Assembly: GCA_036557285.1 (NCBI GenBank)
Contig: DATBHW010000007.1
Span: 17,657 to 81,656, forward strand
Length of the DNA: 64,000 nt
Reading direction: 5' to 3'
Source of the DNA: Ktedonobacterales bacterium
GTDB lineage: Bacteria; Chloroflexota; Ktedonobacteria; Ktedonobacterales; DATBGS01
The number at the start of each line of letters is the position of its first letter. Positions within the stretch are counted from its first letter, which is position 1. The notes under the pieces are model-generated. The model had not been told where the DNA came from. It worked only from the letters and a program-made list of their open reading frames with translations, and did not search any database. A program made the position numbers and the translations under genes. Of the stretch, positions 20,819 through 36,531 are shown one piece after another.

Positions 20819-20848
20819 TTGTAAGAGCAGAGGCCAGGGCGATATACT
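20819..20848 (+). promoter_or_regulatory. Candidate divergent promoter TTGTAA-N18-TATACT for leuB
   Basis: Hexamers were read directly. It lies about 100 nt upstream of the leuB ATG. Confidence 0.3.
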
Positions 20849-20949
20849 CAAGCGAGCCAATCATCGAACTCTGGCCTGGAGGAGCAAGCCGTTTCTATTG
20901 CAAGATCAGCCCTTCAGACTCCATTACATGTAAAAGGATACAAAGCAGT

Positions 20950-22044: not shown

Positions 22045-22077
22045 AAAAACCGGCTGGCGGTTCTATCCGCCAGCCGC
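22043..22077 (-). terminator. Rho-independent terminator for the minus-strand chemosensory operon (10-bp GC stem, 6-nt loop, T7 tract on the minus strand)
   Basis: The minus strand reads CGGCTGGCGG-atagaa-CCGCCAGCCG-GTTTTTTTA, immediately after the TAG of the 65-aa ORF. The same hairpin abuts the leuB stop. Confidence 0.75.
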
Positions 22078-22274
22078 TAACCCATTTTTGCTTTGGGAGA
22101 TGGCCCCATCGCTTTCAGCCTGGCTCGCAGTTCCGCCAGGCGCTCATTCGCCGCTTCCTCGGCATCTTTTTTCCCTTCTGCGGGCGAGCGGGCTTGCTCC
22201 AGTCGGCGCAGTTCCTCCAGCAGCAGCCGACGATGCACATCCCAACGAATGATCGCGCGTTCTCTCCCCATCAT
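22077..22274 (-). CDS. Small charged coiled-coil protein (65 aa), last gene of the chemosensory operon
   Basis: Starts 14 nt after the cheA-like stop and ends at the terminator. Arg/Glu/Leu-rich helix. No homology recognised. Confidence 0.35.
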   Translation of the reverse strand: MMGRERAIIRWDVHRRLLLEELRRLEQARSPAEGKKDAEEAANERLAELRARLKAMGPSPKAKMG

Positions 22275-22288
22275 TACCGCGTACCCTG

Positions 22289-25200
22289 CTAGTTTGTTGC
22301 TTGCGCGCCGCGCACCAGCGTGCCAAGGGTGTTAATCAATTCCTCATCCTGGTAGGGCTTGACCAGATAGGCATCAGCGCCAAGCTGCATCGCGCGCTGA
22401 TGATGTTTGCCAGCCGCGCGCGACGTAAGCACAATCAGCGGCAGATGCTTATATTGGTCCTGGCTGCGCAGGGTGGCAATCAGTTCGTAGCCATCCATAC
22501 GCGGCATCTCAATATCCAGCAGCACCGCAGCAGGTCTGCGCTTCCCAGCGACATCCAATGCCTCGATGCCATCACGCGCCGTCTGCACATCCCAGCCCGC
22601 CGTCTTCAGCATATTACTGACGACACGCCGCACGCTGGGGCTGTCATCCACCACCAGCACATACTGATCTTCCATCCGCACCGGTGGAGGCATGGTTTGC
22701 CCGCGCCCCACCGTCGGCAGCGATGAAGTCCAGGTAGGAGCCAGCAGCCGTGTTGGCGCCGTGATCGCCGAGATCGAGGTAGCTGTCGAAACCCCAGGAA
22801 CCGCAGCCAGGGAAGCGCCTGTCGTTTGCGCTCGCTGCTCCAGCAGTTTCAGCACATCCAGAATGAGGACCACCTGCCCATTGCCCAGCACCGTTGCGCC
22901 AGCCACACCGCGCACTTCACGCAGATGCAGCCCCAGGTTCTTCGCCACAATCTCTTGCTTGCCCAGCACGCTGTCTACCACCAGGGCGTAGTGCTGGCGG
23001 CCAGCCGCCACCAGCAAGACCGAAGAGCGGTCCTCGATCCTCTGTGCTTGCAGCCCCAGCAAAGAAGCCAGCGGCGCCAGCGCATAGGCTTCGCCGCGCA
23101 CCGTGATGGCCGGAACTCCCAGAACGTTTGTGCGCTCGGCATAATCCAGACGCCCAATTTGTTCCACCAGCGACATAGGAATAGCGTAGGTTTGATCGGC
23201 GACACGGGCCAGCACCGCGCGCTGAATCTGGACGCTGATGGGGAACTTCAAGGTAAAGGCGCTGCCATTGCCAGGCGTTGATTCCACCTCCACCGAGCCA
23301 CGCAGGCGCGCCGCCACATCAGCCACTACGTCCAGCCCGACTCCGCGTCCGCTCTCCTCGGTAATCGAATCAGCGGTGCTAAAGCCAGGCCGGAAGATCA
23401 GATTCAGAACCGCCTGCTCGGAGAGCGGCGCGCGCGCGTCCAACAGCCCGCGCGAGATAGCCGTATTGCGCACCTTCTCGGCATCAATACCCGTCCCATC
23501 ATCACGCACGGTGACGACGATCTGGTTGCCCTCATGGCTGGCGCTCAGGGTAATTTGTCCGGCGCGCGGTTTGCCGCTCGCCTCGCGCGCTTCAGGCAAC
23601 TCAATCGCATGCGTCACCGCATTGCGCACCACATGCAGCAGCGCCCCGGCCATCTCCTCATAAATCGTGCGATCAACCTCAGTTTCCTCCCCCTCCACCG
23701 CCAGATCGATCTCTTTCCCCAAACGCAGCGCAACCGCGCTCGCGGCGCGATGCAGGCGTGGAATCATCGTTGAGATAGGGACCAGCCGCACCTTGAGCAG
23801 TTGATCCTGGAAGGACGAACTCAGGCGCGTCTCCTTGAGAAACAGGCTTTCACACTCTCGAATGATCGCCTCCATCTCCATACTCAGCGTTGCCATATCC
23901 GAGACGCCCTCGCTCAAGCCACGAGTCAGCCGGTGAAACTCGCTGTAGCGGTCCAGTTCCAGTTCGTCGAAATCAGCCAGATGCGTCGCAACCTTGCCCG
24001 CATTCCCACCAAGCGCGCCCGAAGGCAATCCTATTCCACGCCCACGCGAGGAAGCGCCCTGCTCCAGCGGCCCGCTGGCGCTCCCGGCAATACTGGTGCT
24101 CTCCAGAATAGCCGACTGGCCGATGCGCCCGCTCGGCAAGGTAACGGCCTCAAAACGGCTCTCAAGATTTGTCCCCACTTCTTGCAGACGAGCACTGCTG
24201 AGACCAACATCTGAAACCATGCGCATCATCCGGCTCAGCCGCTCCTCCAAAACACTGCGGTTGACCAGCAGTTCGCCAAACAGATCAACCAACTCATCCA
24301 GTTTCTTCAGGCGGATACGCACACTCAGGTCACTTTTATCCGCTGCTTCCCCGTGTGTCGCCAGGGCCACCAACAGGCCAGCCTGGTGTTCGCCCTGGTC
24401 CGTGGAGGGCGCCTGCCCAGCGACAGCCTCAGACTCCAGGTCAGCCAGCGTCGTCTCAGTTCCTGCGGGAGCCGAAACAGGACCGACATCCGCCACGCTC
24501 TCCTGCCCCAGCAGCGAGTGATAGCGCGGGCGCAGCGACTCAACCACAGCGGCATCGCCCCCCTGTTTGCTCGTTCGCCCCGTCACCAGCAGTTCCAGCG
24601 CCTCGGATGTATCCAGAATCAGGCTAAGCGCATCGGTATTGATTTCGATGCTCCCCTCCATCATCCGATCCAGCAAATCCTCAAAGACATGGGCCAGATC
24701 AGCGATATGGACAAAGCCCATCATCGCCGCTGCCCCCTTCAGCGTATGTGTCGCCCGCCGGATGCCTTGAAGCGTTTCCCGATCCTCAGGAGACCGTTGC
24801 AGCGCCGTGACGCCGGTATCAATATTCTGGAGATGTTCTTCGGCTTCAGCCCGGAAGACTTCCAGCGTCTCCTCCGATTGCTCAGTGGCGCGCACCGTCC
24901 TTTTCTGCTCTAGAACCACCGGCTGAGGGATATTCGCCAGCAGCGACGGAGAGAAAACATACGCGGCAGGGCGTTCAGACGGCGGCGCCACCGTATTGCG
25001 TTGGATTTCCGCCAGGAACTGCTGGCGCACCTGCACCTCAAGCTCTGCGCGGATGCGGTTAGTCTCCTCCTGGCGCACCTGCTCCACAATCTCCGCGCGC
25101 ATCCTCGACTCGACCTCCGCGCGCAACTGCGCGCGTAATTCCCCGGTCAGAGAAGCAGAGAGTTCTGGCTTGGCCGACGCTGGCGGAGACCAGCTAAAGC

Positions 25201-26737
25201 GCGCCACCGTCGCGCTGAAACCGCCTTCCTCGTTTGGCGCGGCCATCGCCAGGATTGATGAAATAAGTGGGCCGCACGCGCGCATAGATTCGGCCAACCG
25301 CGCGCTGGCTGCGCCCAGTTCGTTATCGGTGGCGGCCAGGCCGCTGGATGCGTCTTTCAGCAAGCCCAGCACCTTCTTGAGCCGGGTGGTTACTACCCAC
25401 AGGACCGAGAGCGGCAGATAGCGGCGCACATGGTCCGGGCTTTGGCGCAGGTTCAACCCCATCGCCCTGCCAGCCCAATCCTCCACCCGATCAATCGCGT
25501 CCTTCGATCCATCAAGGAACCCGCGCAATTCCGCGCGCTCACCTTCTATCGAAGCCGCCACCGCACGCAGGGCTGCCAATGTCTCTTTAAGGGCGCCAAC
25601 CTCCTGGCGCACCCGCTCTTCCTGTTCTACCAACTGCTGCCAGGTTGTCTTGCCCGCGCTCGTATCAGCGACTTGCGGGGAAGGGGAAGCCGGGAAGGCT
25701 CTCGGAAGCGGGCCAGTTATTGGCTCCTGGCCGGGCGCATCGAGCGGCTGGCTGATCGAAGCCATTCGCTCGCGCCCGATGAGCGCCGCCCAGGTTGATT
25801 CGCCGGACGCGGCGGCGTCGGGGAAAGCCGGGAATGAAGCGCCTGCCTCTGTGGCGGCGTGCGGCTGTTCGGGCCACTCGCCGTCGGTTGGCGCTTGAAA
25901 CGCCGCCAGCATCTCCGCAAGCGAGGGCTGCTGCTCAGCCCCTGGCGTGGCAGGCGCAGGCTCATAACGAAATGAAGCCGATGCCGCCTCTTCAGAAGCA
26001 GCACTGGCGGCAGGCTCAGCAGGCATCCCTCGCGCCAAAGGCCGGGTAATATGCTCGCGGAAGTCTACATCCCCGGCGCCCCCGGCGGGCGCTTCAGCAG
26101 AGGACAGCGCCGCCGCTCCTCCAGTCGAGGCCGCGCCAGCGGAGTTGCCCAGCAGCGCCAGCCAATCCGCCGGTCCTGACGACTCAGCGGGCTGTTCTGT
26201 AGGCTGCTCATCAGGGGACAGCCATGCTTCCGCAGCGCCCCCTCCCTGGCCGTAGTGTCTGGAGCCAGCAGGCTGAGTCGGTGCAGCGGGCGGCTCGAAT
26301 TCGACATCCTGCGAACCATTCGCTTCCCCTGCCCGCGCCGCACGCATCTGACGAAACGAGGCATGATCGGCGGCATCCTCAGCCACAAAACGTCCTTCCT
26401 CACCTGTGCCACCCTTAATAGACTCCAGCAGCAGGCGCGCGCGTTCCAGCGAGCGGCGCAGCAACTCAATCGCCGATCCATCAAGCCGGAACACTTCATC
26501 GAGCGCGTCCCCTAACACATCCTCCATCGCGTGCGCGACCTGAGAAAGCCCAGGAAAATCCATCATCGAGGCAGACCCGCTGATGGTATGCGTGCGCCGA
26601 TAGGCTTCTTCCAGGGCTTCGCTATCTTCGGGCGCCTGCTCTAGCCGATTCAGGTTCGCCTCAATTTCGGGTAGATAGCTGCCCACCTCGTCGAGAAAAC
26701 TATCAAGAATCGCAAATTTATCGAACGAACTGGACAT
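22289..26737 (-). CDS. cheA: Hybrid CheA-like histidine kinase: Hpt - long low-complexity linker - Hpt - dimerisation/HATPase - CheW domain - receiver (ChpA/PixL/FrzE-like)
   Basis: Hpt1 'YRRTHTISGSASMMDF', Hpt2 'IRRATHTLKGAAAMMGF', 'LLHVVRNAVTHAIE', 'VRDDGTGID', 'GRGVGLDVV', CheW-like 'YAIPMSLVEQI', and C-terminal REC 'VLVVDDSPSVRR...LLDIEMPRMDGYEL...LTSRA...AYLVKP'. Confidence 0.9.
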   Translation of the reverse strand: MSSSFDKFAILDSFLDEVGSYLPEIEANLNRLEQAPEDSEALEEAYRRTHTISGSASMMDFPGLSQVAHAMEDVLGDALDEVFRLDGSAIELLRRSLERARLLLESIKGGTGEEGRFVAEDAADHASFRQMRAARAGEANGSQDVEFEPPAAPTQPAGSRHYGQGGGAAEAWLSPDEQPTEQPAESSGPADWLALLGNSAGAASTGGAAALSSAEAPAGGAGDVDFREHITRPLARGMPAEPAASAASEEAASASFRYEPAPATPGAEQQPSLAEMLAAFQAPTDGEWPEQPHAATEAGASFPAFPDAAASGESTWAALIGRERMASISQPLDAPGQEPITGPLPRAFPASPSPQVADTSAGKTTWQQLVEQEERVRQEVGALKETLAALRAVAASIEGERAELRGFLDGSKDAIDRVEDWAGRAMGLNLRQSPDHVRRYLPLSVLWVVTTRLKKVLGLLKDASSGLAATDNELGAASARLAESMRACGPLISSILAMAAPNEEGGFSATVARFSWSPPASAKPELSASLTGELRAQLRAEVESRMRAEIVEQVRQEETNRIRAELEVQVRQQFLAEIQRNTVAPPSERPAAYVFSPSLLANIPQPVVLEQKRTVRATEQSEETLEVFRAEAEEHLQNIDTGVTALQRSPEDRETLQGIRRATHTLKGAAAMMGFVHIADLAHVFEDLLDRMMEGSIEINTDALSLILDTSEALELLVTGRTSKQGGDAAVVESLRPRYHSLLGQESVADVGPVSAPAGTETTLADLESEAVAGQAPSTDQGEHQAGLLVALATHGEAADKSDLSVRIRLKKLDELVDLFGELLVNRSVLEERLSRMMRMVSDVGLSSARLQEVGTNLESRFEAVTLPSGRIGQSAILESTSIAGSASGPLEQGASSRGRGIGLPSGALGGNAGKVATHLADFDELELDRYSEFHRLTRGLSEGVSDMATLSMEMEAIIRECESLFLKETRLSSSFQDQLLKVRLVPISTMIPRLHRAASAVALRLGKEIDLAVEGEETEVDRTIYEEMAGALLHVVRNAVTHAIELPEAREASGKPRAGQITLSASHEGNQIVVTVRDDGTGIDAEKVRNTAISRGLLDARAPLSEQAVLNLIFRPGFSTADSITEESGRGVGLDVVADVAARLRGSVEVESTPGNGSAFTLKFPISVQIQRAVLARVADQTYAIPMSLVEQIGRLDYAERTNVLGVPAITVRGEAYALAPLASLLGLQAQRIEDRSSVLLVAAGRQHYALVVDSVLGKQEIVAKNLGLHLREVRGVAGATVLGNGQVVLILDVLKLLEQRAQTTGASLAAVPGVSTATSISAITAPTRLLAPTWTSSLPTVGRGQTMPPPVRMEDQYVLVVDDSPSVRRVVSNMLKTAGWDVQTARDGIEALDVAGKRRPAAVLLDIEMPRMDGYELIATLRSQDQYKHLPLIVLTSRAAGKHHQRAMQLGADAYLVKPYQDEELINTLGTLVRGAQATN

Positions 26738-26838
26738 GCTTCATACACCACCATTCTGGCTAGAAGTCTCAAGGCCAAGAACCCAGCCCCTGCTGCTTTC
26801 TCTCCCCCAAGAACCGCGAGCTTGAGACCTGAACGCTC

Positions 26839-28602
26839 TTATTCGTATGGCTGGTTCGTAAAGGGCCGATTAAACGGCTGGTCAGGGTAGCCTTGCCCCT
26901 GGCTATTATAGCCCTGTTGTCCATTGTACCCTTGATTCGGATAGTCCGGCTGCCCATTATACCCTTGATTGGGGAAGCCCGGCTGCCCATTCGACAACGG
27001 GTTTCCATAATCTTGCTGGCCGTTGTAGTGCGGCAGCCCCTGGTTCGGGCCGGGCATGGGCGGCTGCCCTGCCGCATGGGCGGGCAAGGCTGGCAGATTC
27101 GGGAAGGCAGGATCATCACCAAACCAGGAGTTCGGATCAAGCTGATCCAGACTGGGCATATTCAGCAGAGGGGGCAGGCCGCCGCTCGGCGAAGCGAGCG
27201 CATCAGAGGGCTGTTGTTCTGGCAAACGGAACGTCGCCACCGAGGCCCGCAACTGATCGGCCAGTTCAGACAGGTAACTGACACTGGCGGCGGAATCCTG
27301 CGAAGCAGAAGTCGTCTGGCGCGTAATCTCCAGAATCTGATTCATGGCGATAGCCACCGCCTCCGAGGTCTGCGCGCGCTCATTGGCCGAGCGCGCAATC
27401 GCCTCAATCATCTGTGCCTGGCGATCCACCGCCGCATAGATCATCTTCAGCGCGTGGCCGGCTTCATCGGCCAGCCTGGAACCAGAGACCACTTCCTGGG
27501 TACTTTCTTCCATAGCCACGACGGCATCATACGTATCGCCCTGAATACTCTTGACCAGCGTGGCGATCTTCTTCGTAGCCTCACCAGAGCGTTCAGCCAG
27601 CATACGAATCTCGTCGGCCACCACGCTAAACCCGCGCCCCTGGTCGCCGGCCATCGCCGATTGAATAGCCGCGTTCAGGGCCAGCAGGTTCGTCTGATCG
27701 GCAATGTCCTCGATCAAACGCACGATCTCGCCAATCTCTTGGGAACGCTCGCCCAGACGCTTGATCTTCTTAGAGGTCTCCTGCACGTTATCACGGATAT
27801 GCTGCATGCCATCAATCGTCTGCACCACCGCTTGTTCGCCGCCGCGCGCGTTGCGCAGCGCCTCCTGAGCCGTCTCGGCGCTCAACTGCGCGTTACGCGC
27901 CGTCGCCTGGATAAAGGTCGCCAGCGCCTCCACCGCCTCAGTCGTCTGGGCAATCTGCACCTCTTGCTGCTCCGACGCCTGGGCCAGTTCAGCGGAGCGG
28001 TCCAGGATGCGGCGGGTCGCCGTCGTCACCTGCATCGTGGTTGACTGCACGCGGCCCACGACTTTCCCCAACTCTTCAATCATATAGTTAAACGAGTCAG
28101 CCAGCACACCCAGCGTATCGGGGGTCACTTCCGCCTGCACGCGCAAATCGCCATCGCCCACCGCGCTGACTTCCTGAAGCAGCTTTTCAATCTGCGCTTG
28201 CAGGTTGGCAGCCTCGCGGCCCTCGCCAGCACTCGGCGACGTTTCTAAGAGCGAATTGATACTGGCCGCCAGCATAGCGAAGGCATCATCGCCAACTACC
28301 TCGGCTCGTATCGCGCGGTCGCCTTCCGCCCCACTCTTGCAGATCTCCACCAGTCCAATGCAGCGCTCATGAATCTGACGCTGGATGCGATAGCCCAGAT
28401 ACATGACAACCAGCATCGAGATAATCGCGCAGGTAAACGTAGCAATCCAGGTCGCCAGTTGGTCATCGGCGTTGAGGGTGAGCCGCTGCACTTCCCAGAC
28501 TCCCAGGATCAGCACCATAACAGCCGGGATAATAGCAGCAGCCAGCAACGTCCAGCGCATGCGTAAGGCAAGCGACAAGCCCTTACCAGAATCAGGATTC
28601 AT
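26839..28602 (-). CDS. Methyl-accepting chemotaxis protein without a periplasmic sensor domain, with a Q/N/G/Y/P-rich repeat tail
   Basis: Two TM helices are separated by about 15 aa, followed by HAMP and the signalling hairpin 'NLLALNAAIQSAMAGDQGRGFSVVADEIRMLAERS'. The tail is 'NQGYNGQPDYPNQGYNGQQGYNSQGQGYPDQP'. Confidence 0.9.
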   Translation of the reverse strand: MNPDSGKGLSLALRMRWTLLAAAIIPAVMVLILGVWEVQRLTLNADDQLATWIATFTCAIISMLVVMYLGYRIQRQIHERCIGLVEICKSGAEGDRAIRAEVVGDDAFAMLAASINSLLETSPSAGEGREAANLQAQIEKLLQEVSAVGDGDLRVQAEVTPDTLGVLADSFNYMIEELGKVVGRVQSTTMQVTTATRRILDRSAELAQASEQQEVQIAQTTEAVEALATFIQATARNAQLSAETAQEALRNARGGEQAVVQTIDGMQHIRDNVQETSKKIKRLGERSQEIGEIVRLIEDIADQTNLLALNAAIQSAMAGDQGRGFSVVADEIRMLAERSGEATKKIATLVKSIQGDTYDAVVAMEESTQEVVSGSRLADEAGHALKMIYAAVDRQAQMIEAIARSANERAQTSEAVAIAMNQILEITRQTTSASQDSAASVSYLSELADQLRASVATFRLPEQQPSDALASPSGGLPPLLNMPSLDQLDPNSWFGDDPAFPNLPALPAHAAGQPPMPGPNQGLPHYNGQQDYGNPLSNGQPGFPNQGYNGQPDYPNQGYNGQQGYNSQGQGYPDQPFNRPFTNQPYE

Positions 28603-28846
28603 AATAAATACTTCCTCCTAATAGTTGAGGATCATCCCATAGCGCCGTCGCGCCAAACGATCAGACTGAAGGGCATAGAAACAAGCGACCTTTATGGCAT
28701 CCTTCCCCTTATAGCACAGACGCCCCGACGCCCCTTGCAGGGCTGGCGCCATGCTCAAGCCAACACACGCTGAGTTCGGCGCTGCGGCGGCCCTTCATCT
28801 GGCTTGCCAGGCGGCAGGTTCCCCCGCTGCGGCGAGCCGCTCGCGC

Positions 28847-29680
28847 CTAATTTCCACTTTGATACCGGTGCATTTTTTCTGATAAGAGCAGCCGCTCCAT
28901 ATCAATTAACAGAACCGAACGAACGCCAACGCTTGCAATTCCACTGACATAGGGAGAAGCCCAGCCAGGAATGGCCTGCGTGATATGCTGCGATTGTATC
29001 ATGTTTGGAAGAATGCCACGCATCTCACTCACCCCATCAACCACCAGCCCGATCACGAGTTCACGCACACGCCCGACTACGAGCCGCGTGCGCGCAGATG
29101 GCGGCAGGCGGTCCATGCCCAAAAAACTGCGCAAATCAACCACCGAGACGATATGCCCGCGCGAATGGATGACTCCATCGATCCAGTATGCCACATTCGG
29201 CACCGGAGTAACATCAGGGAGGCGCTCGACGGCCTGCACATTCTCGGCCTTGAACGCGCACTCAAAACTGTCCAGGGAGAATACCAGATACTGTTCGCCC
29301 AGATCCTCAGCGTTCTCGTCAGCGCCAGGCGCTGTGTTAATGGTCCCGTGGAGTGCCAGTTGCCCCCCGGCATAGCTGGCAGCAAGCATCGAGGCAGAGA
29401 GCGAACCGCTCGCCCCGAGGGGGTAATGCTCCAGGTCCAGTCCCCCCGCTTTGCGGGCAAGTTGCTCGAAGGGGATGCTCGCCCCGCCGCTCTGGCTGCC
29501 TGGGTCCATTCCACCGGGCGAGCGGTTGAACCCGAACCCTTCGGCGCCGTTGCTCAGGCCCTCTGGCTCGTCGAACGGCCTCGCTGATTCTCCACCAGAC
29601 CGGTCCTGCCTATCGCTCACAATGATCTCCTCTGCTGCGGTTTCTCCTACCCCTATACGCGCCTCGCTCCAGCAAGCCAT
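28847..29680 (-). CDS. cheW: CheW-like coupling protein with a ~130-aa Gly/Ser/Ala-rich N-terminal extension
   Basis: CheW domain 'QYLVFSLDSFECAFKAENVQAVERLPDVTPVPNVAYWIDGVIHSRGHIVSVVDLRSFLGM...VVDGVSEM'. Confidence 0.85.
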   Translation of the reverse strand: MACWSEARIGVGETAAEEIIVSDRQDRSGGESARPFDEPEGLSNGAEGFGFNRSPGGMDPGSQSGGASIPFEQLARKAGGLDLEHYPLGASGSLSASMLAASYAGGQLALHGTINTAPGADENAEDLGEQYLVFSLDSFECAFKAENVQAVERLPDVTPVPNVAYWIDGVIHSRGHIVSVVDLRSFLGMDRLPPSARTRLVVGRVRELVIGLVVDGVSEMRGILPNMIQSQHITQAIPGWASPYVSGIASVGVRSVLLIDMERLLLSEKMHRYQSGN

Positions 29681-29723
29681 CCGTGGCGCTGGAGAGGTTC
29701 GGACGCATTCCCTGCGACGGATA

Positions 29724-30089
29724 TTACACTAATCTGCGCACACTGGCAACCAGTTCATCCCGATTAAAGGGTTTGGTCAGATACAAGTCTGCCCCCTGCT
29801 GCAAACCCCAGCGTTTATCCAGCGGGGTGTTCTTGCTGCTCATCAGAATAATCGGGATATTGCGGCCCTGTTCCATGTGTTTGATCTGGCGGCACAGTTG
29901 AAAGCCATTGCGCCGCGGCAAAATCACATCGAGCACAACACATTGCGGATGTTCTGTCAAGACCTTTTCCATAGCTTCATCGCCGTCAACTGCCGTAATT
30001 ACCTCGAAGCCGCTCTCACGCAGCGGCGTAGCAATCAATGTCAGGTCAGTCCAGCTATCGTCAACAACGAGAACTTTCGCGCCGGGCAT
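29724..30089 (-). CDS. Single-domain response regulator (CheY/PilH-like)
   Basis: 'KVLVVDDS', 'VVLDVILPRRNGF', 'IILMSSK', 'DLYLTKPF'. GGAGGAG RBS before the ATG at 30089. Confidence 0.85.
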   Translation of the reverse strand: MPGAKVLVVDDSWTDLTLIATPLRESGFEVITAVDGDEAMEKVLTEHPQCVVLDVILPRRNGFQLCRQIKHMEQGRNIPIILMSSKNTPLDKRWGLQQGADLYLTKPFNRDELVASVRRLV

Positions 30090-30314
30090 CAAGTGTCTCC
30101 TCCTGGGGAATGAGGCTCCGCCTCGCTCCCGTCCATGTGGCATTCGGACCGTATCAGCGTCTATAGTGAAAAGCGCGAGATATGCCGACAGGCCCAGGCC
30201 ACACTCAGTGGCAGGGCCTTGGCAGCCTCCACAGCACTGCTTCTATTACAGACAACTATCCAGGGCCAGAGGCGGTAACGTCAGCAGCCATACTGGCCCA
30301 GCGATCACAAGCGA

Positions 30315-30752
30315 TTAGCCGCGCCGCCGCAAACGGGTTGGGCTGCGGCCAGCATCACGCCTGCGCTCACGCGCGGGTACATTCGCTAAATGCTTTTTCA
30401 CCGACTGCACCAGTTCCACCGAATCGAATGGTTTGGTTAAATATTCCGATGAACCGGCAAGTCGCCCTCTGACTTTATCGAATAGCCCATCTTTCCCACT
30501 CAACATGATAATGGGAATGTGGCGAAACTCCAGTTTATCCCGAATAATGCGGCAAATATTATAACCGTCCATGCGGGGCAGCATAATATCAAGCAGGATG
30601 AGATCCGGGTCTTCGTCGGCAACCGCCGCCAGGGCGCTTAACCCATCGCTGGCGGTGATAACGCGCATATGTTCGCGTTGCAGCGTCAACTGCACAATCT
30701 TCCGCACCGTTGGGCTATCATCTACCACCAGCACCACTGGATCATTCATCAA
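30315..30752 (-). CDS. Single-domain response regulator (CheY/PilG-like)
   Basis: 'VLVVDDSPTVRK', 'ILLDIMLPRMDGY', 'IIMLSGKD', 'EYLTKPF'. 4-nt overlap with the upstream DUF4388 gene. Confidence 0.85.
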   Translation of the reverse strand: MMNDPVVLVVDDSPTVRKIVQLTLQREHMRVITASDGLSALAAVADEDPDLILLDIMLPRMDGYNICRIIRDKLEFRHIPIIMLSGKDGLFDKVRGRLAGSSEYLTKPFDSVELVQSVKKHLANVPARERRRDAGRSPTRLRRRG

Positions 30753-32161
30753 CTCAGCCTCCTTCGCTCCCGCATCGGAACCATGCGCGGGTCAGAGTCC
30801 ATGTATCGCATGCCTGCCTGTGTCATGCCTGGATTTGATTGGCGCCCATCATAGGAGCGTTCAGACGACCCGCCGCGCCGCGCCGCTGCGCGCTCCTGGA
30901 GAAAAGCCTCTCCTCCATTCCCCTGAAGTGCACGTGCCTGCTCTTCGATCTCCTGCAAGAACACATCCCACAACTCACGAAACCGGCGCTCGGAACGGGA
31001 ACTCCCCACTTCATCTTCCAAGATTTTCGTACACATCTGAAGCATCAGCCAGTGGAAGGCGCTCATCACATCCCAATAAAAGCTCTGGAGTTGCTCACCC
31101 TTGACCAGCTTATGCAGCGCCAGAATCTCCTGGTAATCAAGCTGGCCCTCTTGAAACACGACGACCGTATCAACAATCGGCCACCAGACACACGCCTGCT
31201 GGAGCAGTGGCCCAAAGGTCTCCTCCAGGTAGCCTGTTACCTGGGCCGGAGGCACTGCGCCGCGCCCGCGCAGATGGCGAGCATAGGCTCCATGATGAGT
31301 CAAGAGGCCGTTGACGCAGGTTGCCAGCGTCTTCACCAACGCCAGCAGGCGCTGTTCAGTCGATCCTTGATACAGTTTCGATAGCTCATGCTGGCTGGCG
31401 GTCAAAACATCCACCAGATTCCGCTCTAGCTCTGTCTCCAGCGTCTGATCAACCACTTCGATCAGTCGCAGCGACAGCAAATGCCCCATACACTGCGCCA
31501 CCCGCGCCTCGCTTGCCAGCAGCGCATAAGCAATCGCCTGCAACGGCAACTGCCCATTTGCCAGACACAGCACATTGACCGCATCTGGTTCCAGCCCCAG
31601 GCGCATAATATCGCCGGTAAAGTGCGACATCCAGCGCGCCACCGTCGTGCGATTGAGTCCGATAGACGCGGCCTCATCCCACTCATCGGCCTGCCGCAAA
31701 CTTTCCAATAAGACATGATCAACATTCAGCGCAAGCTGAGCGCCTTGCAACACATTGCGATGAAATTCAAAACGGCCCTGCTGCCAGCGCACCGCGCGGG
31801 AGAGGGCCTGAATCACACCATACTCCTGCCATTGGAACATCTCCGCCTCGCTGATGACCTGGTAATCCACCAGCAGCCCCAGTATATCGGGCGAGTTCGG
31901 GCCTATCGCGCGGTGCAGTTCGGCAGCGCGCCTCCCATCAATCTGACGCAGCGAACGCATCACTGCCAGCAGGTTGGGGCGCTGCACAAAGTTATCTTGC
32001 AGCCCGGCAATCTGCCCCTTATTGAGATAGAGCGAGAGAGTATCCTGGCCGGACGTTACCATCAGCGTTCCGGTCTTACCACTAAGCGCGAGCATCTTCA
32101 GCGTTGCCTGTAAGCCAAGCGTCTCAAGGTCGCCGTCCAGTATTCTCCCTGGCTGTTGCAT
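30749..32161 (-). CDS. DUF4388 (PATAN-type) domain protein with a ~370-aa uncharacterised C-terminal region
   Basis: N-terminus 'ILDGDLETLGLQATLKMLALSGKTGTLMVTSGQDTLSLYLNKGQIAG' matches the DUF4388 pattern. GAGGAG RBS before the ATG at 32161. Confidence 0.7.
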   Translation of the reverse strand: MQQPGRILDGDLETLGLQATLKMLALSGKTGTLMVTSGQDTLSLYLNKGQIAGLQDNFVQRPNLLAVMRSLRQIDGRRAAELHRAIGPNSPDILGLLVDYQVISEAEMFQWQEYGVIQALSRAVRWQQGRFEFHRNVLQGAQLALNVDHVLLESLRQADEWDEAASIGLNRTTVARWMSHFTGDIMRLGLEPDAVNVLCLANGQLPLQAIAYALLASEARVAQCMGHLLSLRLIEVVDQTLETELERNLVDVLTASQHELSKLYQGSTEQRLLALVKTLATCVNGLLTHHGAYARHLRGRGAVPPAQVTGYLEETFGPLLQQACVWWPIVDTVVVFQEGQLDYQEILALHKLVKGEQLQSFYWDVMSAFHWLMLQMCTKILEDEVGSSRSERRFRELWDVFLQEIEEQARALQGNGGEAFLQERAAARRGGSSERSYDGRQSNPGMTQAGMRYMDSDPRMVPMRERRRLS

Positions 32162-32288
32162 ATCACTCTTGCTCCTCTTAACCGTCTGAGGCTGCCAGAA
32201 GCGGAAGAAAACCCTCCATCGCTTCGAGGCTGCCAGACCTGGCGAAAGAGGCCAGCCACCCGTCGGTCTCTTCGCGCCTGTTACCGTG

Positions 32289-33125
32289 CTACCCCACTTC
32301 AAGCGGGCCGCGCGATCCTTCAGCACGCCTCATTCCCAGTACCCGCTCTACCGCCGCGAGCAAATCGGCTGATCGTAATGGTTTTTTCAAGACAGCGAGC
32401 GATGGCTGGCTCAACTCCTCAGCCCGCACCTCCACTTCCGCCAGCGCGCTCAACACCACCACCGGTAAACGGGTCAGCCTGGGCCTGGCCCGCAAACAGC
32501 GCAGCACCTGATAGCCATTCATCTTGGGCATCATCATATCCATCACCAGGCAATCAGGCTCCCAGGTAAGACATTGCTCCAGCACCTCAATCCCATCGTG
32601 CGCCGCGCGGGCAATATAGCGCCCGCTCTTCGACAGCACCGTACAGGCCCATTCCGTCATGCGGCTGTCGTCATCCGCTGCCAGCACCCGTACCTGCCGA
32701 TCAGGAGCCACAGGTTCTTGCGGTTGAGTTACCCCCTCAGCGAGAACCCTCTCCAGCGTCATAAGATACCCCCGTAACACGCCCATGTCAAACGGCTTGG
32801 GGACGAACAAGACCGCCTCCAGCGCCTCAAGCGTCTTGCGCCGCAGGGGTTGGCTGCTCAGCGCAATAGTCAGGCGGGCCACAGGCCGGGCAAGCGATTC
32901 TGGCTCATCGAGGCTGCCGCCCACCGCCAGCAGTTCTTGCTCCATTCCATCCAGATCAATAATCAAGAAATCCGCAGCGCCAGCCTGGCTGGCTGCCCTC
33001 TGCTGATTGCCCCCCCAGACAGCAGCCCCATACCCCCACTGGCAGAGGTTCCGCACCAGCACTTCACTCAACCGACCATCTGTTCCCATCACCACAATGC
33101 GCAGTGGCTGTTGCTTCCTTGTCAT
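32289..33125 (-). CDS. Protein with two receiver-like modules and no output domain
   Basis: Module 1 'LRIVVMGTDG...FLIIDLDG...VPKPF'. Module 2 'VRVLAADDDS...LVMDMMMPKMNGY...VVVLSAL...VLKKP'. Confidence 0.75.
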   Translation of the reverse strand: MTRKQQPLRIVVMGTDGRLSEVLVRNLCQWGYGAAVWGGNQQRAASQAGAADFLIIDLDGMEQELLAVGGSLDEPESLARPVARLTIALSSQPLRRKTLEALEAVLFVPKPFDMGVLRGYLMTLERVLAEGVTQPQEPVAPDRQVRVLAADDDSRMTEWACTVLSKSGRYIARAAHDGIEVLEQCLTWEPDCLVMDMMMPKMNGYQVLRCLRARPRLTRLPVVVLSALAEVEVRAEELSQPSLAVLKKPLRSADLLAAVERVLGMRRAEGSRGPLEVG

Positions 33126-33171
33126 CTTTCGCCTCAGCTTCCCTGATCAGGAAATCCCCATAGACTTCCGC

Positions 33172-33933
33172 TCAGTGTGACCGAAAAATATAGCCAACAC
33201 CTGGCTCAGTAAGAATATAGCGAGGATGAGTCGGGTCTTGCTCCACCTTGCGCCGCAGTTGGCGGATAAACACACGCAAGTAATCCTTCTCATCTCCATA
33301 CTCTGGTCCCCAGATCGTTTTCAGCAGCGCGCGATGCGTCAGCACACGATCAGCCGCCGCCATCAGTTGATACAGCAGATCAAACTCCTTGGGTGTCAGG
33401 CGCACCCGCCGGGCGCCTGCCATCACGGTACGGCTCCCCAGACGCATCACCACATACCCATCTTCGCTCGTCAGCGTCTGCTCACCTTCTATCTCATCTG
33501 CCTGGCGTCCAGCACTGCGCCGCAGGCAAGCCCGTATCCGCGCCAGCAGTTCATCGGACCCAAAAGGCTTGGTTAAATAATCATCGGCCCCCAGATCAAG
33601 CGCGTGTACCTTAAAGGGTTCTTCGCCGTGGGCGCTGACCACGATAATTGGCGCTGATGAGCATTGACGCAGTTCACGACAGACCGCCAGGCCATCCATC
33701 CCCGGCATGGATAAATCCAACAAGACCAGATCAGGCGTTTTCTGCCGCGCCAGATCAAGCCCTTGCAGACCACTCGCCGCAACCAGCGCCTCATAACCGC
33801 TGGCGGTCAGAATCCGCCGTAACGAGCGCAGCACTCGTTCCTCGTCATCCACCACCAGAATCCGCTTTGCTTTCGGCTGCGCGTTCACTGATTGCTCAGC
33901 GCCAGTTTCTTCCTCGACCACAGTAGCCCTCAC
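33172..33933 (-). CDS. OmpR-family (KdpE-like) DNA-binding response regulator
   Basis: REC 'ILVVDDEERV...VLLDLSMPGMDG...IIVVSAHG...DDYLTKPF' plus winged helix 'LTPKEFDLLYQLM...YLRVFIRQLRRKVE...ILTEPGVGYIF'. Confidence 0.9.
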   Translation of the reverse strand: MRATVVEEETGAEQSVNAQPKAKRILVVDDEERVLRSLRRILTASGYEALVAASGLQGLDLARQKTPDLVLLDLSMPGMDGLAVCRELRQCSSAPIIVVSAHGEEPFKVHALDLGADDYLTKPFGSDELLARIRACLRRSAGRQADEIEGEQTLTSEDGYVVMRLGSRTVMAGARRVRLTPKEFDLLYQLMAAADRVLTHRALLKTIWGPEYGDEKDYLRVFIRQLRRKVEQDPTHPRYILTEPGVGYIFRSH

Positions 33934-34017
33934 TGCGTCAGATACAGACCATGAAATGACGACATCAACCTCAGCGCCGCCAGGGTAGACACTGGACGGT
34001 CTGTGGCCGCTTCGCGC

Positions 34018-35358
34018 TCAAACAGCACCTTCTACCTCCTCGCTCTCTTCGCCGACGCCGAATACTTTCTCCTGAACCGCCTCTTGCTCCAGCGAGGTTT
34101 CTGGTCCAGGCGCCCCTCCGAATGGGCCGCTGTCGTGGGCAACTCTGCCGGTCATCGGCGCTGATTGTTCAACCGGAAGGGCAAAGACAAACCGCGACCC
34201 TTTTCCGGCGCGCGCTTCGACCCAGATACGCCCCTGATGTGCCAGGATAATCCCGCGACAGATCGCCAGACCCAGGCCGGACCCTCCAGCCAGCGTAGGC
34301 GCGTGGCGCTCCATGAACCCATCATTCAGAGCCTCCGAGCGCCCGCGCCGCTGCTTGACACGATAGAACTTCTCAAAGACGCGCTCGCGCTCCTCCGCTG
34401 GAATACCACATCCCTGATCCTGCACACTCACCTGCACTTCCCCCTCCGCCAGACTCGCCGTAACCCGAATCTCCGTCCCCGCCGGAGAGTATTTGGCCGC
34501 ATTCTCGATCAGGTTGCTCAGCACCCGATCAAGCTGCATAAAATCACCCTGGATCAGCGGCAGCGACACCGCCACATCATACACGATCCGATGCTGGCTT
34601 GTCACTTTCTGCAAGCGATCCAACACCGTATGAATAATCTCCGCCAGATCACACCACTCCGTCTGGAGTTGCAGCGCGCCACCCTGGATGCGCGACATCT
34701 CCAGCAGCGCGCTGACCAGCGTAGTCAGGCGATCAGTCTCCTCATTTATATCTTGCAGCGTCTCGCGCCGCAGCGCCTCGTCCCACTGCAACCCTTCTTG
34801 CAGCAGCCCCGTGACCGCCGCCTTAATCACCATCAAGGGCGTGCGCAGGTCATGCGAAACCGATGAAAGCAGCCCGTTTTCCAGCGCCTCATCCTGCATC
34901 AAAGGCATCATATTACGCAAAAAGAGCGCATACCCTAGCAGCGTTCCTGCCTCATTATACAAAGGATAAGGAGCCAGCGCGTAGCACTGCTTGCGTTCGT
35001 GAAACGTATCGCTCCCGGCAGAAGAGGTGAAGCGCAGCCAGTGCCTGGAAGCAGCCAGCGCAGCAATATCCACCGGGTCGCCCAGGGTCGGCCTGTTCTC
35101 ATGCATCAGGCAATTGCCCCGCAGCAGATGAGAAAGCCAGGCGCTGACTGGCAGGTCATTCAGTTCTGTGACGCTTCTGCCAAGCGTGGCCGCCAGGTCG
35201 TTCAGAAAGACACAGCGGTCATGCGTATCGGCTACCACCAGCCCTTCGGCGCCCGCCGAGGCCAGCCGCTCCAGATAGACGATCTGCTGCGCGAGATCAG
35301 GAGAAGGCTCGGCAGCCAGTCTGGGCGCTGATCGTGGTAGCACGTCCATCCCTTTCAA
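34018..35358 (-). CDS. Cytoplasmic PAS-type sensor histidine kinase
   Basis: H-box 'SSVSHDLRTPL', N-box 'LSNLIENAAKYSP', G1 'VQDQGCGIP', G2 'GSGLGLAICRGI'. No TM segment. The start is ambiguous (TTG at 35358 or ATG at 35349). Confidence 0.85.
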   Translation of the reverse strand: MKGMDVLPRSAPRLAAEPSPDLAQQIVYLERLASAGAEGLVVADTHDRCVFLNDLAATLGRSVTELNDLPVSAWLSHLLRGNCLMHENRPTLGDPVDIAALAASRHWLRFTSSAGSDTFHERKQCYALAPYPLYNEAGTLLGYALFLRNMMPLMQDEALENGLLSSVSHDLRTPLMVIKAAVTGLLQEGLQWDEALRRETLQDINEETDRLTTLVSALLEMSRIQGGALQLQTEWCDLAEIIHTVLDRLQKVTSQHRIVYDVAVSLPLIQGDFMQLDRVLSNLIENAAKYSPAGTEIRVTASLAEGEVQVSVQDQGCGIPAEERERVFEKFYRVKQRRGRSEALNDGFMERHAPTLAGGSGLGLAICRGIILAHQGRIWVEARAGKGSRFVFALPVEQSAPMTGRVAHDSGPFGGAPGPETSLEQEAVQEKVFGVGEESEEVEGAV

Positions 35359-35490
35359 GCCGGAAACAACAGACCCCCATGAGCTATGCCTCCAGCGCCA
35401 TAGCTCCTTAGAACTGTCTTAGAAGGACCACGCATAGTATAGCATGCAGCGCAAGCGGCGCAGCCATCAGGCTGTCAAGGTATCAGCAGT

Positions 35491-36222: not shown

Positions 36223-36256
36223 TCATATACTCCTTAATACAAGAGTGGCATCAACC

Positions 36257-36326
36257 GTAAACTCTGTAAACTCTGTAAACTCTTGGACCTGGAATCTCTT
36301 CACAAAAACTGAGAGAGTTTACAGAG
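36257..36326. repeat. GTAAACTCT x3 perfect tandem repeat (36257-36283) plus an inverted 13-bp copy AGAGTTTACAGAG (36314-36326)
   Basis: Read directly. It lies 35-105 nt upstream of the dNK start. On the minus strand the third unit supplies a TTTACG -35-like hexamer (TTTACG-N16-TATTAA). Confidence 0.85.
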
Positions 36327-36439
36327 ACTACAGCACATAACCCAAACCTCGCGAACCTCAGACCGATTGAACAGACGAACAACCATCATCTTTAGTAGCA
36401 CAGAAGCGTTGCTCCCTGGACAGGAGCATTCTTTACAGG

Positions 36440-36479
36440 AAAAGGAGATAGGAAAAACAGCGTTGCTCTCCCTATCTCC
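36440..36479 (-). terminator. Hairpin with U-tract downstream of nrdJ (9-bp stem GGAGATAGG/CCTATCTCC, 18-nt loop, then TTTT on the minus strand)
   Basis: Read directly. It lies about 55 nt after the nrdJ stop. Confidence 0.5.
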
Positions 36480-36531
36480 TCTGAACATCTCTCACCCCTG
36501 GACGCCAGCGTTCACCACAGCAGCGGCTCAG

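What the first reader, a model, noticed from the sequence alone, without database searches (positions are those of the whole stretch)
22077..35358. 13-kb single-strand chemosensory supra-operon of Pil-Chp/Tax type without adaptation enzymes, headed by a PAS kinase/OmpR pair
**Seen in sequence.** Ten co-directional genes run with short gaps or overlaps:
1. PAS histidine kinase
2. OmpR-type response regulator
3. two-receiver protein
4. DUF4388 protein
5. CheY
6. CheY
7. CheW
8. MCP
9. CheA-REC hybrid with two Hpt domains
10. 65-aa ORF, followed by a strong terminator

That makes six receiver domains in total, and no CheB, CheR, CheC/D/X/Z anywhere in the window.

**Established knowledge.** The order PATAN(DUF4388)-CheY-CheW-MCP-CheA/REC mirrors cyanobacterial Tax/Pix and Pseudomonas Pil-Chp systems, which control type IV pili rather than flagella.

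**Inference.** This is an alternative-cellular-function chemosensory pathway. Its input is unclear because the MCP has no sensor domain, and it may be fed by the upstream cytoplasmic PAS kinase. Physical linkage of a classical two-component pair to such a cluster is unusual, and the output is unknown.
Basis: partly seen in the sequence, partly recalled or inferred. Interest (0 to 1): 0.7.

Follow-up and report, generated by a model that had tools for sequence, protein, structure and literature searches.

The report
Pilus-type chemosensory operon of Ktedonobacteria
This is a real ten-gene chemotaxis-like signalling operon of the cyanobacterial "Tax" / type-IV-pilus kind, without adaptation enzymes, that is conserved across the mycelial soil bacteria Ktedonobacteria; it is a lineage-specific variant of a known system, and what it controls is unknown.

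Summary
Ten co-directional genes lie on the minus strand at 22077-35358 and end at the only strong terminator in the region. None of the genes called across the window has a CheB, CheR, CheC, CheD, CheX or CheZ domain.

The contig is from a Ktedonobacterales bacterium (Chloroflexota). The core PATAN–CheY–CheY–CheW–MCP–CheA/REC–65-aa gene is present in 65 of 66 related loci with enough flank, all from Ktedonobacteria.

These features place it beside the cyanobacterial Tax and Tfp-class systems:
- CheA has two Hpt domains, a roughly 165-aa dimerisation domain and a C-terminal receiver.
- The MCP is of 40H length, with a two-helix membrane hairpin and no sensor domain.
- There are two single-domain receivers.
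- A PATAN protein heads the core.

These features differ:
- The PATAN protein has no receiver. It carries an orphan winged-helix plus helical-bundle module, and its gene is translationally coupled to CheY1, like a split PatA-type regulator.
- A conserved 65-aa protein follows CheA.
- A kinase/OmpR pair, with or without a pseudo-receiver/receiver protein, sits upstream in 51 of 69 loci. It is missing throughout family JADMIN01, so it is an accessory and not the core input.

Published data report no CheR, CheC, CheD, CheX or MotAB in 81 Ktedonobacteraceae genomes and few type IV pilus genes, so the output is open. Verdict: a new variant of a known kind, of moderate interest.

The parts
34018..35349 (-). 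Cytoplasmic histidine kinase (443 aa): PAS-like N-terminal domain, HisKA, HATPase_c. No TM segment.
   Evidence: Pfam HisKA 9e-14 and HATPase_c 9e-29. No Pfam hit for the N-terminus. The aligned ortholog region scores as PAS_4 at 30.4 bits. Orthologs in Ktedonobacteraceae are 900-1000 aa with two extra GAF domains.
33172..33921 (-). OmpR-family response regulator (REC + winged-helix Trans_reg_C)
   Evidence: Pfam 1.3e-33 and 1.3e-22. No NCBIfam equivalog reaches its cut-off. Found directly upstream of the core in 51 of 69 loci.
32289..33125 (-). Pseudo-receiver + receiver protein (278 aa)
   Evidence: REC at residues 147-260 (Pfam 3.4e-19). The N-terminal half aligns in register with REC (hhalign E 6e-6). 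It lacks the DD pair and keeps D, S and K. Present in 27 of the 51 loci that have HK/OmpR.
30749..32161 (-). PATAN (DUF4388/PatA_N) protein without receiver: PATAN 1-167, winged-helix-like 174-237, five-helix bundle 239-413, disordered tail
   Evidence: Pfam DUF4388 1.2e-18. AF2 mean pLDDT 79.5 for the whole protein and 87 for the C-terminal part. No PDB fold match with E below 0.2. The C-terminal module is found in only 40 clusters among 1.84 billion representatives.
30315..30749 (-). CheY1, single-domain receiver with basic tail; start overlaps the PATAN stop (TGATG)
   Evidence: Pfam REC 1.5e-28. Junction sequence read directly. The junction is -4 to +3 nt in 64 of 79 loci. 72-95% identical across the class.
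29724..30089 (-). CheY2, single-domain receiver (121 aa)
   Evidence: Pfam REC 4.5e-25. 68-98% identical across loci.
28847..29680 (-). CheW with about 130-aa low-complexity N-terminal extension
   Evidence: Pfam CheW 5.2e-28 at residues 130-267. The N-terminus has no family and is conserved only in the nearest relatives.
26839..28602 (-). MCP, 40H length class: TM hairpin, HAMP, signalling domain, Q/N/G/P/Y-rich tail
   Evidence: Pfam MCPsignal 1.8e-43 and HAMP. Same aligned length as CtpM and 27-28 aa longer than E. coli receptors. Hydropathy and conservation profile.
22289..26737 (-). CheA-REC hybrid (1482 aa): Hpt1, disordered linker, conserved unknown block about 385-450, Hpt2, extended P3 (about 805-970), P4, P5/CheW, REC
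   Evidence: Pfam. NCBIfam CheA core aligned from residue 970. Conservation profile over 59 orthologs. Hpt1 and Hpt2 are related at hhalign E 2e-15, and the middle block is not Hpt-like.
22077..22274 (-). Conserved 65-aa protein (N-terminal MG[RV]ER..RW, C-terminal LGP.P...MG)
   Evidence: Found by tblastn in 42 of 62 loci with enough flank. Alignment. No Pfam or NCBIfam family.
22041..22076 (-). Intrinsic terminator, shared with the convergent Iso_dh gene (20950-22044, + strand)
   Evidence: Sequence read; scan. Iso_dh identified.

Best explanation
This is the Ktedonobacteria version of a Tfp-class, cyanobacterial-Tax-like chemosensory phosphorelay.

Proposed signal path:
1. The membrane-anchored MCP has no sensor domain. 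It is 40H long and its HAMP is almost invariant. Together with CheW and the CheA P5 domain it forms a signalling complex.
2. CheA autophosphorylates on its Hpt histidines and passes phosphate to CheY1, to CheY2 and to its own C-terminal receiver.
3. By analogy with PixG/PixH and PilG/PilH, the two CheYs act antagonistically, and the fused receiver acts as a sink or regulator.
4. Output goes through the PATAN protein. Here it is separate from its receiver but translationally coupled to CheY1, so the pair works as a split PatA-type regulator.
5. The PATAN protein docks on a membrane or polar machine. That would be the type IV pilus motor where the lineage has one.
6. There is no methylation-based adaptation.

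The upstream HK/OmpR pair, with or without the pseudoREC-REC protein, is a lineage-specific accessory two-component module. It is probably co-transcribed. It most likely regulates the operon or adds a transcriptional branch, and it is not the receptor's input.

Shown: gene content, domain make-up, conservation, gene coupling, and absence of adaptation genes.
Inferred: phosphotransfer routes, antagonism between the CheYs, the PATAN target, and the role of the HK/OmpR pair.
For: Domain architecture:
- Two Hpt domains with His intact, a C-terminal REC and no P2 domain.
- P3 is about 165 aa, because the CheA core aligns only from residue 970. A published survey reports the longest dimerisation domains (up to 170 aa) in Tfp-class CheAs of Chloroflexota and Cyanobacteria. 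It also reports that about 93% of multi-Hpt CheAs are Tfp or ACF class (PMC10782961).
- The MCP matches 40H length, and PilJ is 40H (PMC13599512).

Match to cyanobacterial Tax systems (PMC11181946):
- These are T4P-class, have two CheY-like regulators and lack methylation enzymes.
- They start with a PATAN regulator, whose PATAN domain is the output and binds PilB1 and PilC.

Conservation:
- The core is conserved in 65 of 66 Ktedonobacteria loci.
- The PATAN stop and CheY1 start abut or overlap in 64 of 79 loci.

Adaptation enzymes:
- No adaptation enzymes anywhere in the window.
- CheR, CheC, CheD and CheX are found in 0 of 81 Ktedonobacteraceae genomes (PMC13374853 Table S6.1).

Accessory status of HK/OmpR:
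- HK/OmpR is absent from all loci assignable to JADMIN01. MMPL, lipocalin-like or chromate-transporter genes lie there instead.
Against: - No pilus genes lie in the window or its flanks.
- Published KO counts say type IV pilus genes are largely absent in Ktedonobacteraceae, which nevertheless keep the cluster.
- The PATAN protein has no receiver, and its C-terminal module has no known fold relative. Its regulation by CheY1 is therefore only inferred from gene coupling.
- The CheA class was not assigned with the MiST class HMMs.
- The family of the window organism is unknown.
- Three intergenic gaps of 127-244 nt could hold internal promoters.
Confidence: 0.68

Rival explanations
1. Same hardware, but the output is not pili. 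In mycelial, non-flagellated Ktedonobacteria that largely lack pili, the pathway controls another polar or developmental process, such as hyphal growth, branching or sporulation. Alternatively it controls gene expression through the linked OmpR-type regulator. Functionally it would then be an 'alternative cellular function' system.
For: - The cluster is universal in Ktedonobacteraceae loci. That family is reported to lack flagellar stator genes and to largely lack type IV pilus genes (PMC13374853).
- HK/OmpR is present in the family reported to largely lack type IV pilus genes (Ktedonobacteraceae) and absent in a family reported to have them (JADMIN01).
- PatA, the founding PATAN protein, acts in heterocyst patterning (mentioned in PMC11181946).
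- The PATAN protein carries a winged-helix-like module.
Against: - The pilus status of the window organism is unknown.
- KO-based absence may miss divergent pilus genes.
- Every experimentally studied PATAN-linked Che system cited here acts on the pilus motor.
- No DNA-binding function has been shown for the winged-helix-like part.
Confidence: 0.3
2. One reading: the cytoplasmic PAS kinase is the real input. It phosphorylates the pseudoREC-REC protein and/or the CheYs, so the two systems form one integrated relay.
For: - The genes share a strand, with 46-127 nt gaps and no internal terminator.
- The linkage is conserved in 51 of 69 loci.
- The extra REC protein sits between the two modules.
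Against: - The core is intact and highly conserved without HK, OmpR or REC2 in 18 of 69 loci. These include every locus assignable to JADMIN01.
- REC2 is missing from 24 of the 51 loci that have HK/OmpR.
- The kinase sensor part varies greatly (443 aa versus 900-1000 aa with GAF domains), whereas the core does not.
- HisKA kinases normally pair with the adjacent OmpR-type regulator (general knowledge of two-component systems).
Confidence: 0.15
3. The HK/OmpR pair is merely a neighbour inside a conserved syntenic block and has no functional tie to the Che genes.
For: - The downstream convergent Iso_dh gene is also conserved next to the cluster in 53 of 62 loci. Local synteny is therefore generally stable.
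- The pair is absent in one family.
Against: - The pair is always on the same strand and immediately upstream.
- There is no terminator between the pair and the core.
- Other upstream neighbours are not conserved: dNK is found only in the four nearest relatives.
Confidence: 0.25
4. This is an ordinary flagellar chemotaxis operon whose CheB and CheR are encoded elsewhere in the genome.
For: One Ktedonobacteria family (JACDGC01) does carry flagellar genes together with CheR, CheC, CheD and CheX. The window's family is undetermined.
Against: - The architecture has multiple Hpt domains, a fused REC, a PATAN protein and no P2 domain.
- Orthologous clusters occur in families with 0 of 81 and 0-1 of 18 genomes carrying CheR or MotAB.
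- No flagellar genes lie in the window or its flanks.
Confidence: 0.03

Closest known systems
Cyanobacterial Tax systems (Synechocystis Tax1 PixG-H-I-J-L; also Tax3 and Nostoc Hmp, the last two from my own knowledge)
   Same: - Gene order PATAN regulator – CheY – CheW – MCP – CheA-REC.
- Two CheY-like receivers.
- Multi-Hpt CheA with a C-terminal REC and a long dimerisation domain.
- No CheB or CheR (PMC11181946; PMC10782961).
   Different: - PATAN is not fused to a receiver. It carries an orphan winged-helix plus helical-bundle module, and the receiver (CheY1) is a separate, translationally coupled gene.
- There are three receiver genes or domains after PATAN, counting the CheA REC.
- The MCP has no photosensory or other sensor domain.
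- There is an extra conserved 65-aa gene.
- There is an optional HK/OmpR/REC-REC module.
- The host is a non-phototrophic Chloroflexota lineage.
Pseudomonas aeruginosa Pil-Chp system
   Same: - Tfp-type logic: a multi-Hpt CheA (ChpA) with a C-terminal REC.
- Two single-domain regulators (PilG and PilH).
- A 40H receptor (PilJ).
   Different: - Pil-Chp has no PATAN protein.
- From my own knowledge, it has CheR and CheB homologues (PilK and ChpB) and two CheW-type adaptors.
- ChpA has eight or nine Hpt-like domains, against two here.
- From my own knowledge, PilJ has a periplasmic domain.
Myxococcus xanthus Frz pathway (own knowledge, not tested here)
   Same: - A CheA-REC fusion (FrzE).
- A two-receiver protein (FrzZ) that resembles the 278-aa pseudoREC-REC protein.
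- Control of cell polarity rather than of flagella.
   Different: - Frz has CheR and CheB (FrzF and FrzG) and a cytoplasmic MCP.
- It has no PATAN gene in the operon.
- No sequence-level comparison was made here.
PatA of Anabaena (PATAN-REC)
   Same: A PATAN domain with a helical insertion acting as the output module (Pfam DUF4388/PatA_N hit).
   Different: - PatA is a stand-alone regulator of heterocyst patterning and is not in a Che operon.
- The window protein lacks the REC domain.

Membership tests
Tfp-class chemosensory system (Wuichet & Zhulin classes, as used in PMC10782961) | CheA with multiple Hpt domains and a C-terminal receiver, and no P2 domain | tested here: met
   Two Hpt stretches, a REC at 1360-1470 and no P2 hit. 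Hpt1 and Hpt2 are homologous. The survey puts about 93% of multi-Hpt CheAs in Tfp or ACF, so the feature does not separate those two classes.
Tfp-class chemosensory system | Strongly extended dimerisation (P3) domain, reported for Tfp CheAs of Chloroflexota and Cyanobacteria | tested here: met
   The H-kinase_dim hit starts at 805. The CheA kinase core aligns only from 970. The block 805-990 is conserved apart from an inserted loop.
Tfp-class chemosensory system | Class assignment of the P3-P5 core by the class-specific HMMs or phylogeny (MiST) | not testable with these tools
   No class HMMs or reference CheA set were available. Supplementary tables of PMC10782961 held no Ktedonobacteria entry.
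Tfp-class chemosensory system | Receptor of the 40H heptad class | tested here: met
   MCP residues 137-460 align to CtpM model positions 235-558 (324 versus 324). The same span is 27-28 aa longer than in the E. coli receptor models. PilJ and 20 other P. aeruginosa receptors are 40H. That CtpM is one of those 40H receptors and that the E. coli receptors are 36H comes from my own knowledge. This is a length-based test, not a heptad-by-heptad one.
Tfp-class chemosensory system | Functional or genomic link to type IV pilus genes | tested here: not met
   No pilus-related Pfam family appears in any gene called across the window and its flanks. Genome-wide presence could not be tested. The literature reports pili largely absent in Ktedonobacteraceae.
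Cyanobacterial Tax-type subgroup | First regulator is PatA-type: PATAN fused to REC | tested here: not met
   The PATAN protein has no REC. The REC is a separate gene whose start overlaps the PATAN stop. It works like a split version but is not the same architecture.
Cyanobacterial Tax-type subgroup | Lacks methylation and demethylation enzymes | tested here: met
   None in the window. CheR is found in 0 of 81 Ktedonobacteraceae and 1 of 18 JADMIN01 genomes. The rest of the genome of the window organism was not seen.
Cyanobacterial Tax-type subgroup | Second regulator is a single-domain CheY; a CheW and an MCP lie between the regulators and CheA | tested here: met
   Gene order and Pfam domains. 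The order is conserved in 65 of 66 loci.
Pseudomonas Pil-Chp | Includes CheR (PilK) and CheB (ChpB) homologues and no PATAN regulator | tested here: not met
   No CheR or CheB is present, and a PATAN gene is present. The contrast with heterotrophic twitching systems is stated.
Classical HisKA/OmpR two-component pair | HisKA + HATPase_c kinase next to a REC + Trans_reg_C regulator, with the phospho-acceptor residues intact | tested here: met
   Pfam. The H-box 'SHDLRTPL' and the receiver DD/D/S/K residues were read in the translations.

The most novel reading that the evidence does not exclude
In Ktedonobacteria this Tfp-class relay has been re-used for something other than pilus motility. These bacteria grow as branched mycelia, and most families are reported to lack flagella and largely lack type IV pili. 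The split PATAN/CheY1 regulator, with its orphan winged-helix plus helical-bundle module, would steer a polar growth, branching or sporulation machine. The linked HK/OmpR/pseudoREC-REC module would add a transcriptional arm. That would be a new output, and a new output domain, for a chemosensory class so far tied to pili.
Probability: 0.25. Interest if true: 0.75.

Novelty: new variant of a known kind. Interest (0 to 1): 0.45.

Why it matters
Chemosensory systems of the pilus (Tfp) class have been studied in Pseudomonas and in cyanobacteria.

This cluster shows a third, class-wide lineage version in Chloroflexota:
- The PatA-type output regulator is split into two coupled genes.
- The PATAN half carries a domain found in no other protein architecture in the 1.84-billion-protein representative library searched.
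- The system is kept, with very high conservation, in bacteria that are described as non-motile and largely pilus-free.

It is a concrete and tractable place to ask what PATAN domains bind when no pilus motor is present. It is also a place to ask how an adaptation-free receptor with no sensor domain is stimulated. Cultured hosts that carry the cluster exist, such as Dictyobacter and Ktedonosporobacter.

For genome annotation, it gives names to several 'hypothetical' genes across more than 100 Ktedonobacteria genomes.

Tried and rejected
- **Pfam on isolated regions.** I scanned the HK N-terminus, the REC2 N-terminus, the CheW N-terminus, the PATAN C-terminus and the CheA linker at E up to 10. 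Nothing was found.
- **NCBIfam.** No equivalog reached its cut-off for any of the ten proteins.
- **Fold search.** Foldseek against the PDB gave no hit below E 0.2, for the whole PATAN protein or for its C-terminal part. There was only a local 69-residue winged-helix match to GATOR1/SEA subunits. I treat the longin-plus-winged-helix resemblance as a lead only.
- **PDB sequence search with CheY1 and CheY2.** The nearest matches are generic PleD-, PhoP- and YycF-type receivers, which is not informative about class.
- **CheA conserved block 385-450.** It is not Hpt-like and not P3-like by hhalign. A word-indexed protein search returned only 20 short unnamed fragments.
- **Rfam on 20000-37000.** No match at E up to 0.1.
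- **Promoter scan.** The number of sites was no higher than in shuffled sequence.
- **Literature.** No paper in the library describes a Ktedonobacteria chemosensory system. The supplementary tables of the CheA survey held no Ktedonobacteria entry.
- **Family of the window organism.** It could not be assigned. The WGS prefixes of the nearest relatives are not among the prefixes searched or seen in the part of the published genome table that I read.
- **Flagellar chemotaxis reading.** Rejected (see rival explanations).


Full report
**1. What is in the sequence**

Between 22077 and 35358 there are ten genes, all on the minus strand.

| Gene | Coordinates | Size and domains |
|---|---|---|
| Histidine kinase | 34018-35349 | 443 aa, HisKA + HATPase_c |
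| OmpR-type regulator | 33172-33921 | REC + Trans_reg_C |
| Two-REC-like protein | 32289-33125 | 278 aa |
| DUF4388/PatA_N (PATAN) protein | 30749-32161 | 470 aa |
| CheY1 | 30315-30749 | single-domain receiver |
| CheY2 | 29724-30089 | single-domain receiver |
| CheW | 28847-29680 | CheW domain |
| MCP | 26839-28602 | HAMP + signalling domain |
| CheA | 22289-26737 | 1482 aa, two Hpt, HATPase_c, CheW, REC |
| 65-aa ORF | 22077-22274 | no family |

- The intergenic distances are 96, 46, 127, -1, 225, 43, 244, 101 and 14 nt.
- The only strong intrinsic terminator between 21900 and 36600 follows the last gene. It has a 10-bp stem with 9 G-C pairs and a T7 run, at 22076-22051, and it faces a convergent Iso_dh gene.
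- Upstream on the same strand lie a deoxynucleoside kinase and an intein-bearing class II ribonucleotide reductase.
- No RNA family matches the region.

**2.

- **PAS.** Pfam does not detect a PAS domain in the window kinase. The region aligns with the segment just before HisKA in orthologs. In a Dictyobacter ortholog that segment scores as PAS_4 (30.4 bits against a cut-off of 23.1), behind two GAF domains that the window protein lacks.
- **Two-receiver protein.** The 278-aa protein has one canonical receiver. Its N-terminal half aligns in register with receivers only at profile level (E 6e-6 to 1e-5). That half has lost the acidic pair but keeps the Asp, Ser and Lys positions. I call it a pseudo-receiver.
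- **MCP.** It has two hydrophobic helices (about 18-36 and 49-67) joined by a loop of about 12-14 residues. HAMP, the signalling domain and a Q/N/G/P/Y-rich tail follow. There is no sensor domain.
- **Adaptation enzymes.** None of the genes called across the window, or in about 10 kb beyond one end on a longer contig, has a CheB, CheR, CheC, CheD, CheX or CheZ domain. None has a pilus or flagellar domain either.

**3. Where it comes from and how conserved it is**

An identical PATAN protein is named by NCBI as coming from a Ktedonobacterales bacterium MAG. A genome-collection scan with a PATAN-protein alignment found 145 relatives. The best 80 loci are all from Ktedonobacteria, including Dictyobacter species and the complete genome of Ktedonosporobacter rubrisoli.

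I compared all window proteins with these loci by tblastn:
- The core PATAN–CheY1–CheY2–CheW–MCP–CheA is present in 65 of 66 loci with enough flank.
- The 65-aa gene is found in 42 of 62 loci. It has a conserved N-terminal MG[RV]ER..RW motif and an invariant C-terminal ...MG.
- The convergent Iso_dh gene is found in 53 of 62 loci.
- Identity is 72-95% for CheY1 and 42-75% for the PATAN protein.
- The MCP HAMP segment is 95-100% identical across 75 orthologs, against about 25% for the membrane hairpin.
- The HK/OmpR pair lies directly upstream on the same strand in 51 of 69 loci. The pseudoREC-REC gene is present in 27 of those.
- Eighteen loci have neither HK nor OmpR. They carry unrelated transporter or lipocalin-like genes there instead.
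- Four of these 'core-only' loci can be mapped through a published genome table to family JADMIN01. Loci with HK/OmpR map to Ktedonobacteraceae.
- The four nearest relatives of the window share its full ten-gene layout and the dNK gene. Their family is not known.

**4. What kind of system it is**

The CheA has these features:
- Two homologous Hpt domains, both with the histidine.
- No P2 domain.
- A C-terminal receiver.
- A dimerisation region of about 165 aa. The H-kinase_dim hit starts at 805, while the kinase core aligns to reference CheAs only from 970.

A survey of 13,673 CheAs reports three relevant points (PMC10782961):
- About 93% of multi-Hpt CheAs belong to the Tfp or ACF classes.
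- More than 90% of them carry a C-terminal receiver.
- The longest dimerisation domains, up to 170 aa, are in Tfp-class CheAs of Chloroflexota and Cyanobacteria.

The MCP spans the same length as the P. aeruginosa CtpM model (324 versus 324 positions). It is 27-28 residues, or four heptads, longer than the E. coli receptors over the same span. I read this as 40H, the class of PilJ (PMC13599512). That CtpM is itself a 40H receptor and that the E. coli receptors are 36H comes from my own knowledge.

Cyanobacterial Tax systems are described as follows (PMC11181946):
- They are T4P-class.
- They have two CheY-like regulators.
- They lack methylation enzymes.
- They start with a PatA-type PATAN-REC regulator, whose PATAN domain is the output and binds PilB1 and PilC.

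Gene order and content here match that description. They match it better than Pil-Chp, which has no PATAN regulator.

**5. How it differs**

- **No receiver on the PATAN protein.** AlphaFold models (pLDDT 79.5 for the whole protein, 87 for the C-terminal part) show four regions:
  - a PATAN domain with a helical insertion (1-167);
  - a winged-helix-like unit (174-237);
  - a five-helix bundle (239-413);
  - a disordered tail.
- **No known fold relative.** No PDB structure matches below E 0.2. Only the winged-helix unit has a local match.
- **An orphan module.** A full HMMER scan of 1.84 billion representative proteins with the C-terminal module found 40 clusters. Every full-length one is 425-520 aa, with the module at the same position. 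The module is therefore confined to this one protein family.
- **Translational coupling.** The PATAN stop codon overlaps the CheY1 start in the window (TGATG). The two codons lie within -4 to +3 nt of each other in 64 of 79 loci. I read this as translational coupling of a split PatA-type regulator.
- **Other lineage-specific features:**
  - the 65-aa gene;
  - a conserved non-Hpt block at CheA residues about 385-450;
  - the optional HK/OmpR/REC-REC module.

**6. Adaptation enzymes and motility organelles in relatives**

A comparative study of 111 Ktedonobacteria genomes reports prevalence by family in its Table S6.1 (PMC13374853).

| Family | CheC, CheD, CheX, MotA, MotB | CheR |
|---|---|---|
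| Ktedonobacteraceae | 0 of 81 | 0 of 81 |
| JACDGC01 | 12 of 12 | 12 of 12 |
| JADMIN01 | 0 of 18 | 1 of 18 |

- The orthologous cluster therefore works without methylation enzymes in at least two families. It cannot serve flagella there.
- In the largest family it may not serve pili either.
- The window organism's own family, and so its pilus, flagellar and CheR status, remains unknown.

**7. Mechanism I commit to**

1. A receptor–CheW–CheA complex signals without methylation-based adaptation.
2. Phosphate flows from the CheA Hpt domains to CheY1, to CheY2 and to the fused receiver.
3. CheY1 gates the PATAN protein, which docks on a membrane or polar machine. That is the pilus motor where one exists.
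4. CheY2 and the fused receiver antagonise or drain the signal.
5. The HK/OmpR(/REC-REC) module is an accessory that was added or lost by lineage. It is probably co-transcribed, and it regulates the operon or adds a transcriptional branch.

Only the parts list, the conservation and the gene coupling are shown. All phosphotransfer and binding steps are inferred by analogy.

**8. Verdict**

- The system is a new variant of a known kind. It is conserved across a whole bacterial class and has not been described in the literature I could search.
- Interest is moderate (0.45). It would be higher if the output proves to be something other than pili.

Noticed in passing
window 22077-22274 (-): The 65-aa ORF after CheA is a real, conserved small gene, found in 42 of 62 loci. 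It has an N-terminal MG[RV]ER.V.RW motif, a variable helical middle and an invariant C-terminal LGP.P...MG. It has no known family, and its start lies 14 nt after the CheA stop.
   Followed up: partly
window 22289-26737 (-), CheA residues about 385-450: A block reading 'GFLDGSKDALDRME.WAG.AMGLNLRNSPEQVRRYLPLSVMWV' is 60-77% identical across 59 orthologs. It sits inside an otherwise disordered linker. It is not Hpt-like or P3-like by hhalign and has no Pfam family.
   Followed up: partly
window 26839-28602 (-), MCP residues 141-180 and 470-587: The HAMP segment is 95-100% identical across 75 orthologs from the whole class, whereas the membrane hairpin is only about 25% identical. The C-terminal Q/N/G/P/Y-rich tail varies in length, giving orthologs of 557-855 aa.
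   Followed up: partly
window 36532-41721 (-): A class II ribonucleotide reductase of 1729 aa is interrupted by two inteins, one of which carries a LAGLIDADG homing endonuclease. A deoxynucleoside kinase gene lies next to it at 35491-36222.
   Followed up: no
window 42035-43147 (-): An Mrr-type restriction endonuclease domain protein. JGI calls a shorter 255-aa version, and a 98-aa gene of unknown function lies beside it.
   Followed up: no
window 59540-64000 (+) and beyond (L004 10001-17076): A run of signalling genes: a TPR protein, a Ser/Thr kinase fused to a PQQ-type beta-propeller, a PP2C phosphatase, and a DnaJ-VWA protein.
   Followed up: no
loci L022-L086 upstream of OmpR (e.g. L041, about 4460 to 1750 nt upstream of the PATAN gene start): The orthologous kinase in Ktedonobacteraceae is 900-1000 aa with two GAF domains and a PAS_4 domain. 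The window version is a 443-aa form that keeps only the PAS-like domain.
   Followed up: partly
window 1-2723 (+): A helicase C-terminal fragment at the window edge is followed by a 631-aa protein with an MZB (PF09369) domain.
   Followed up: no
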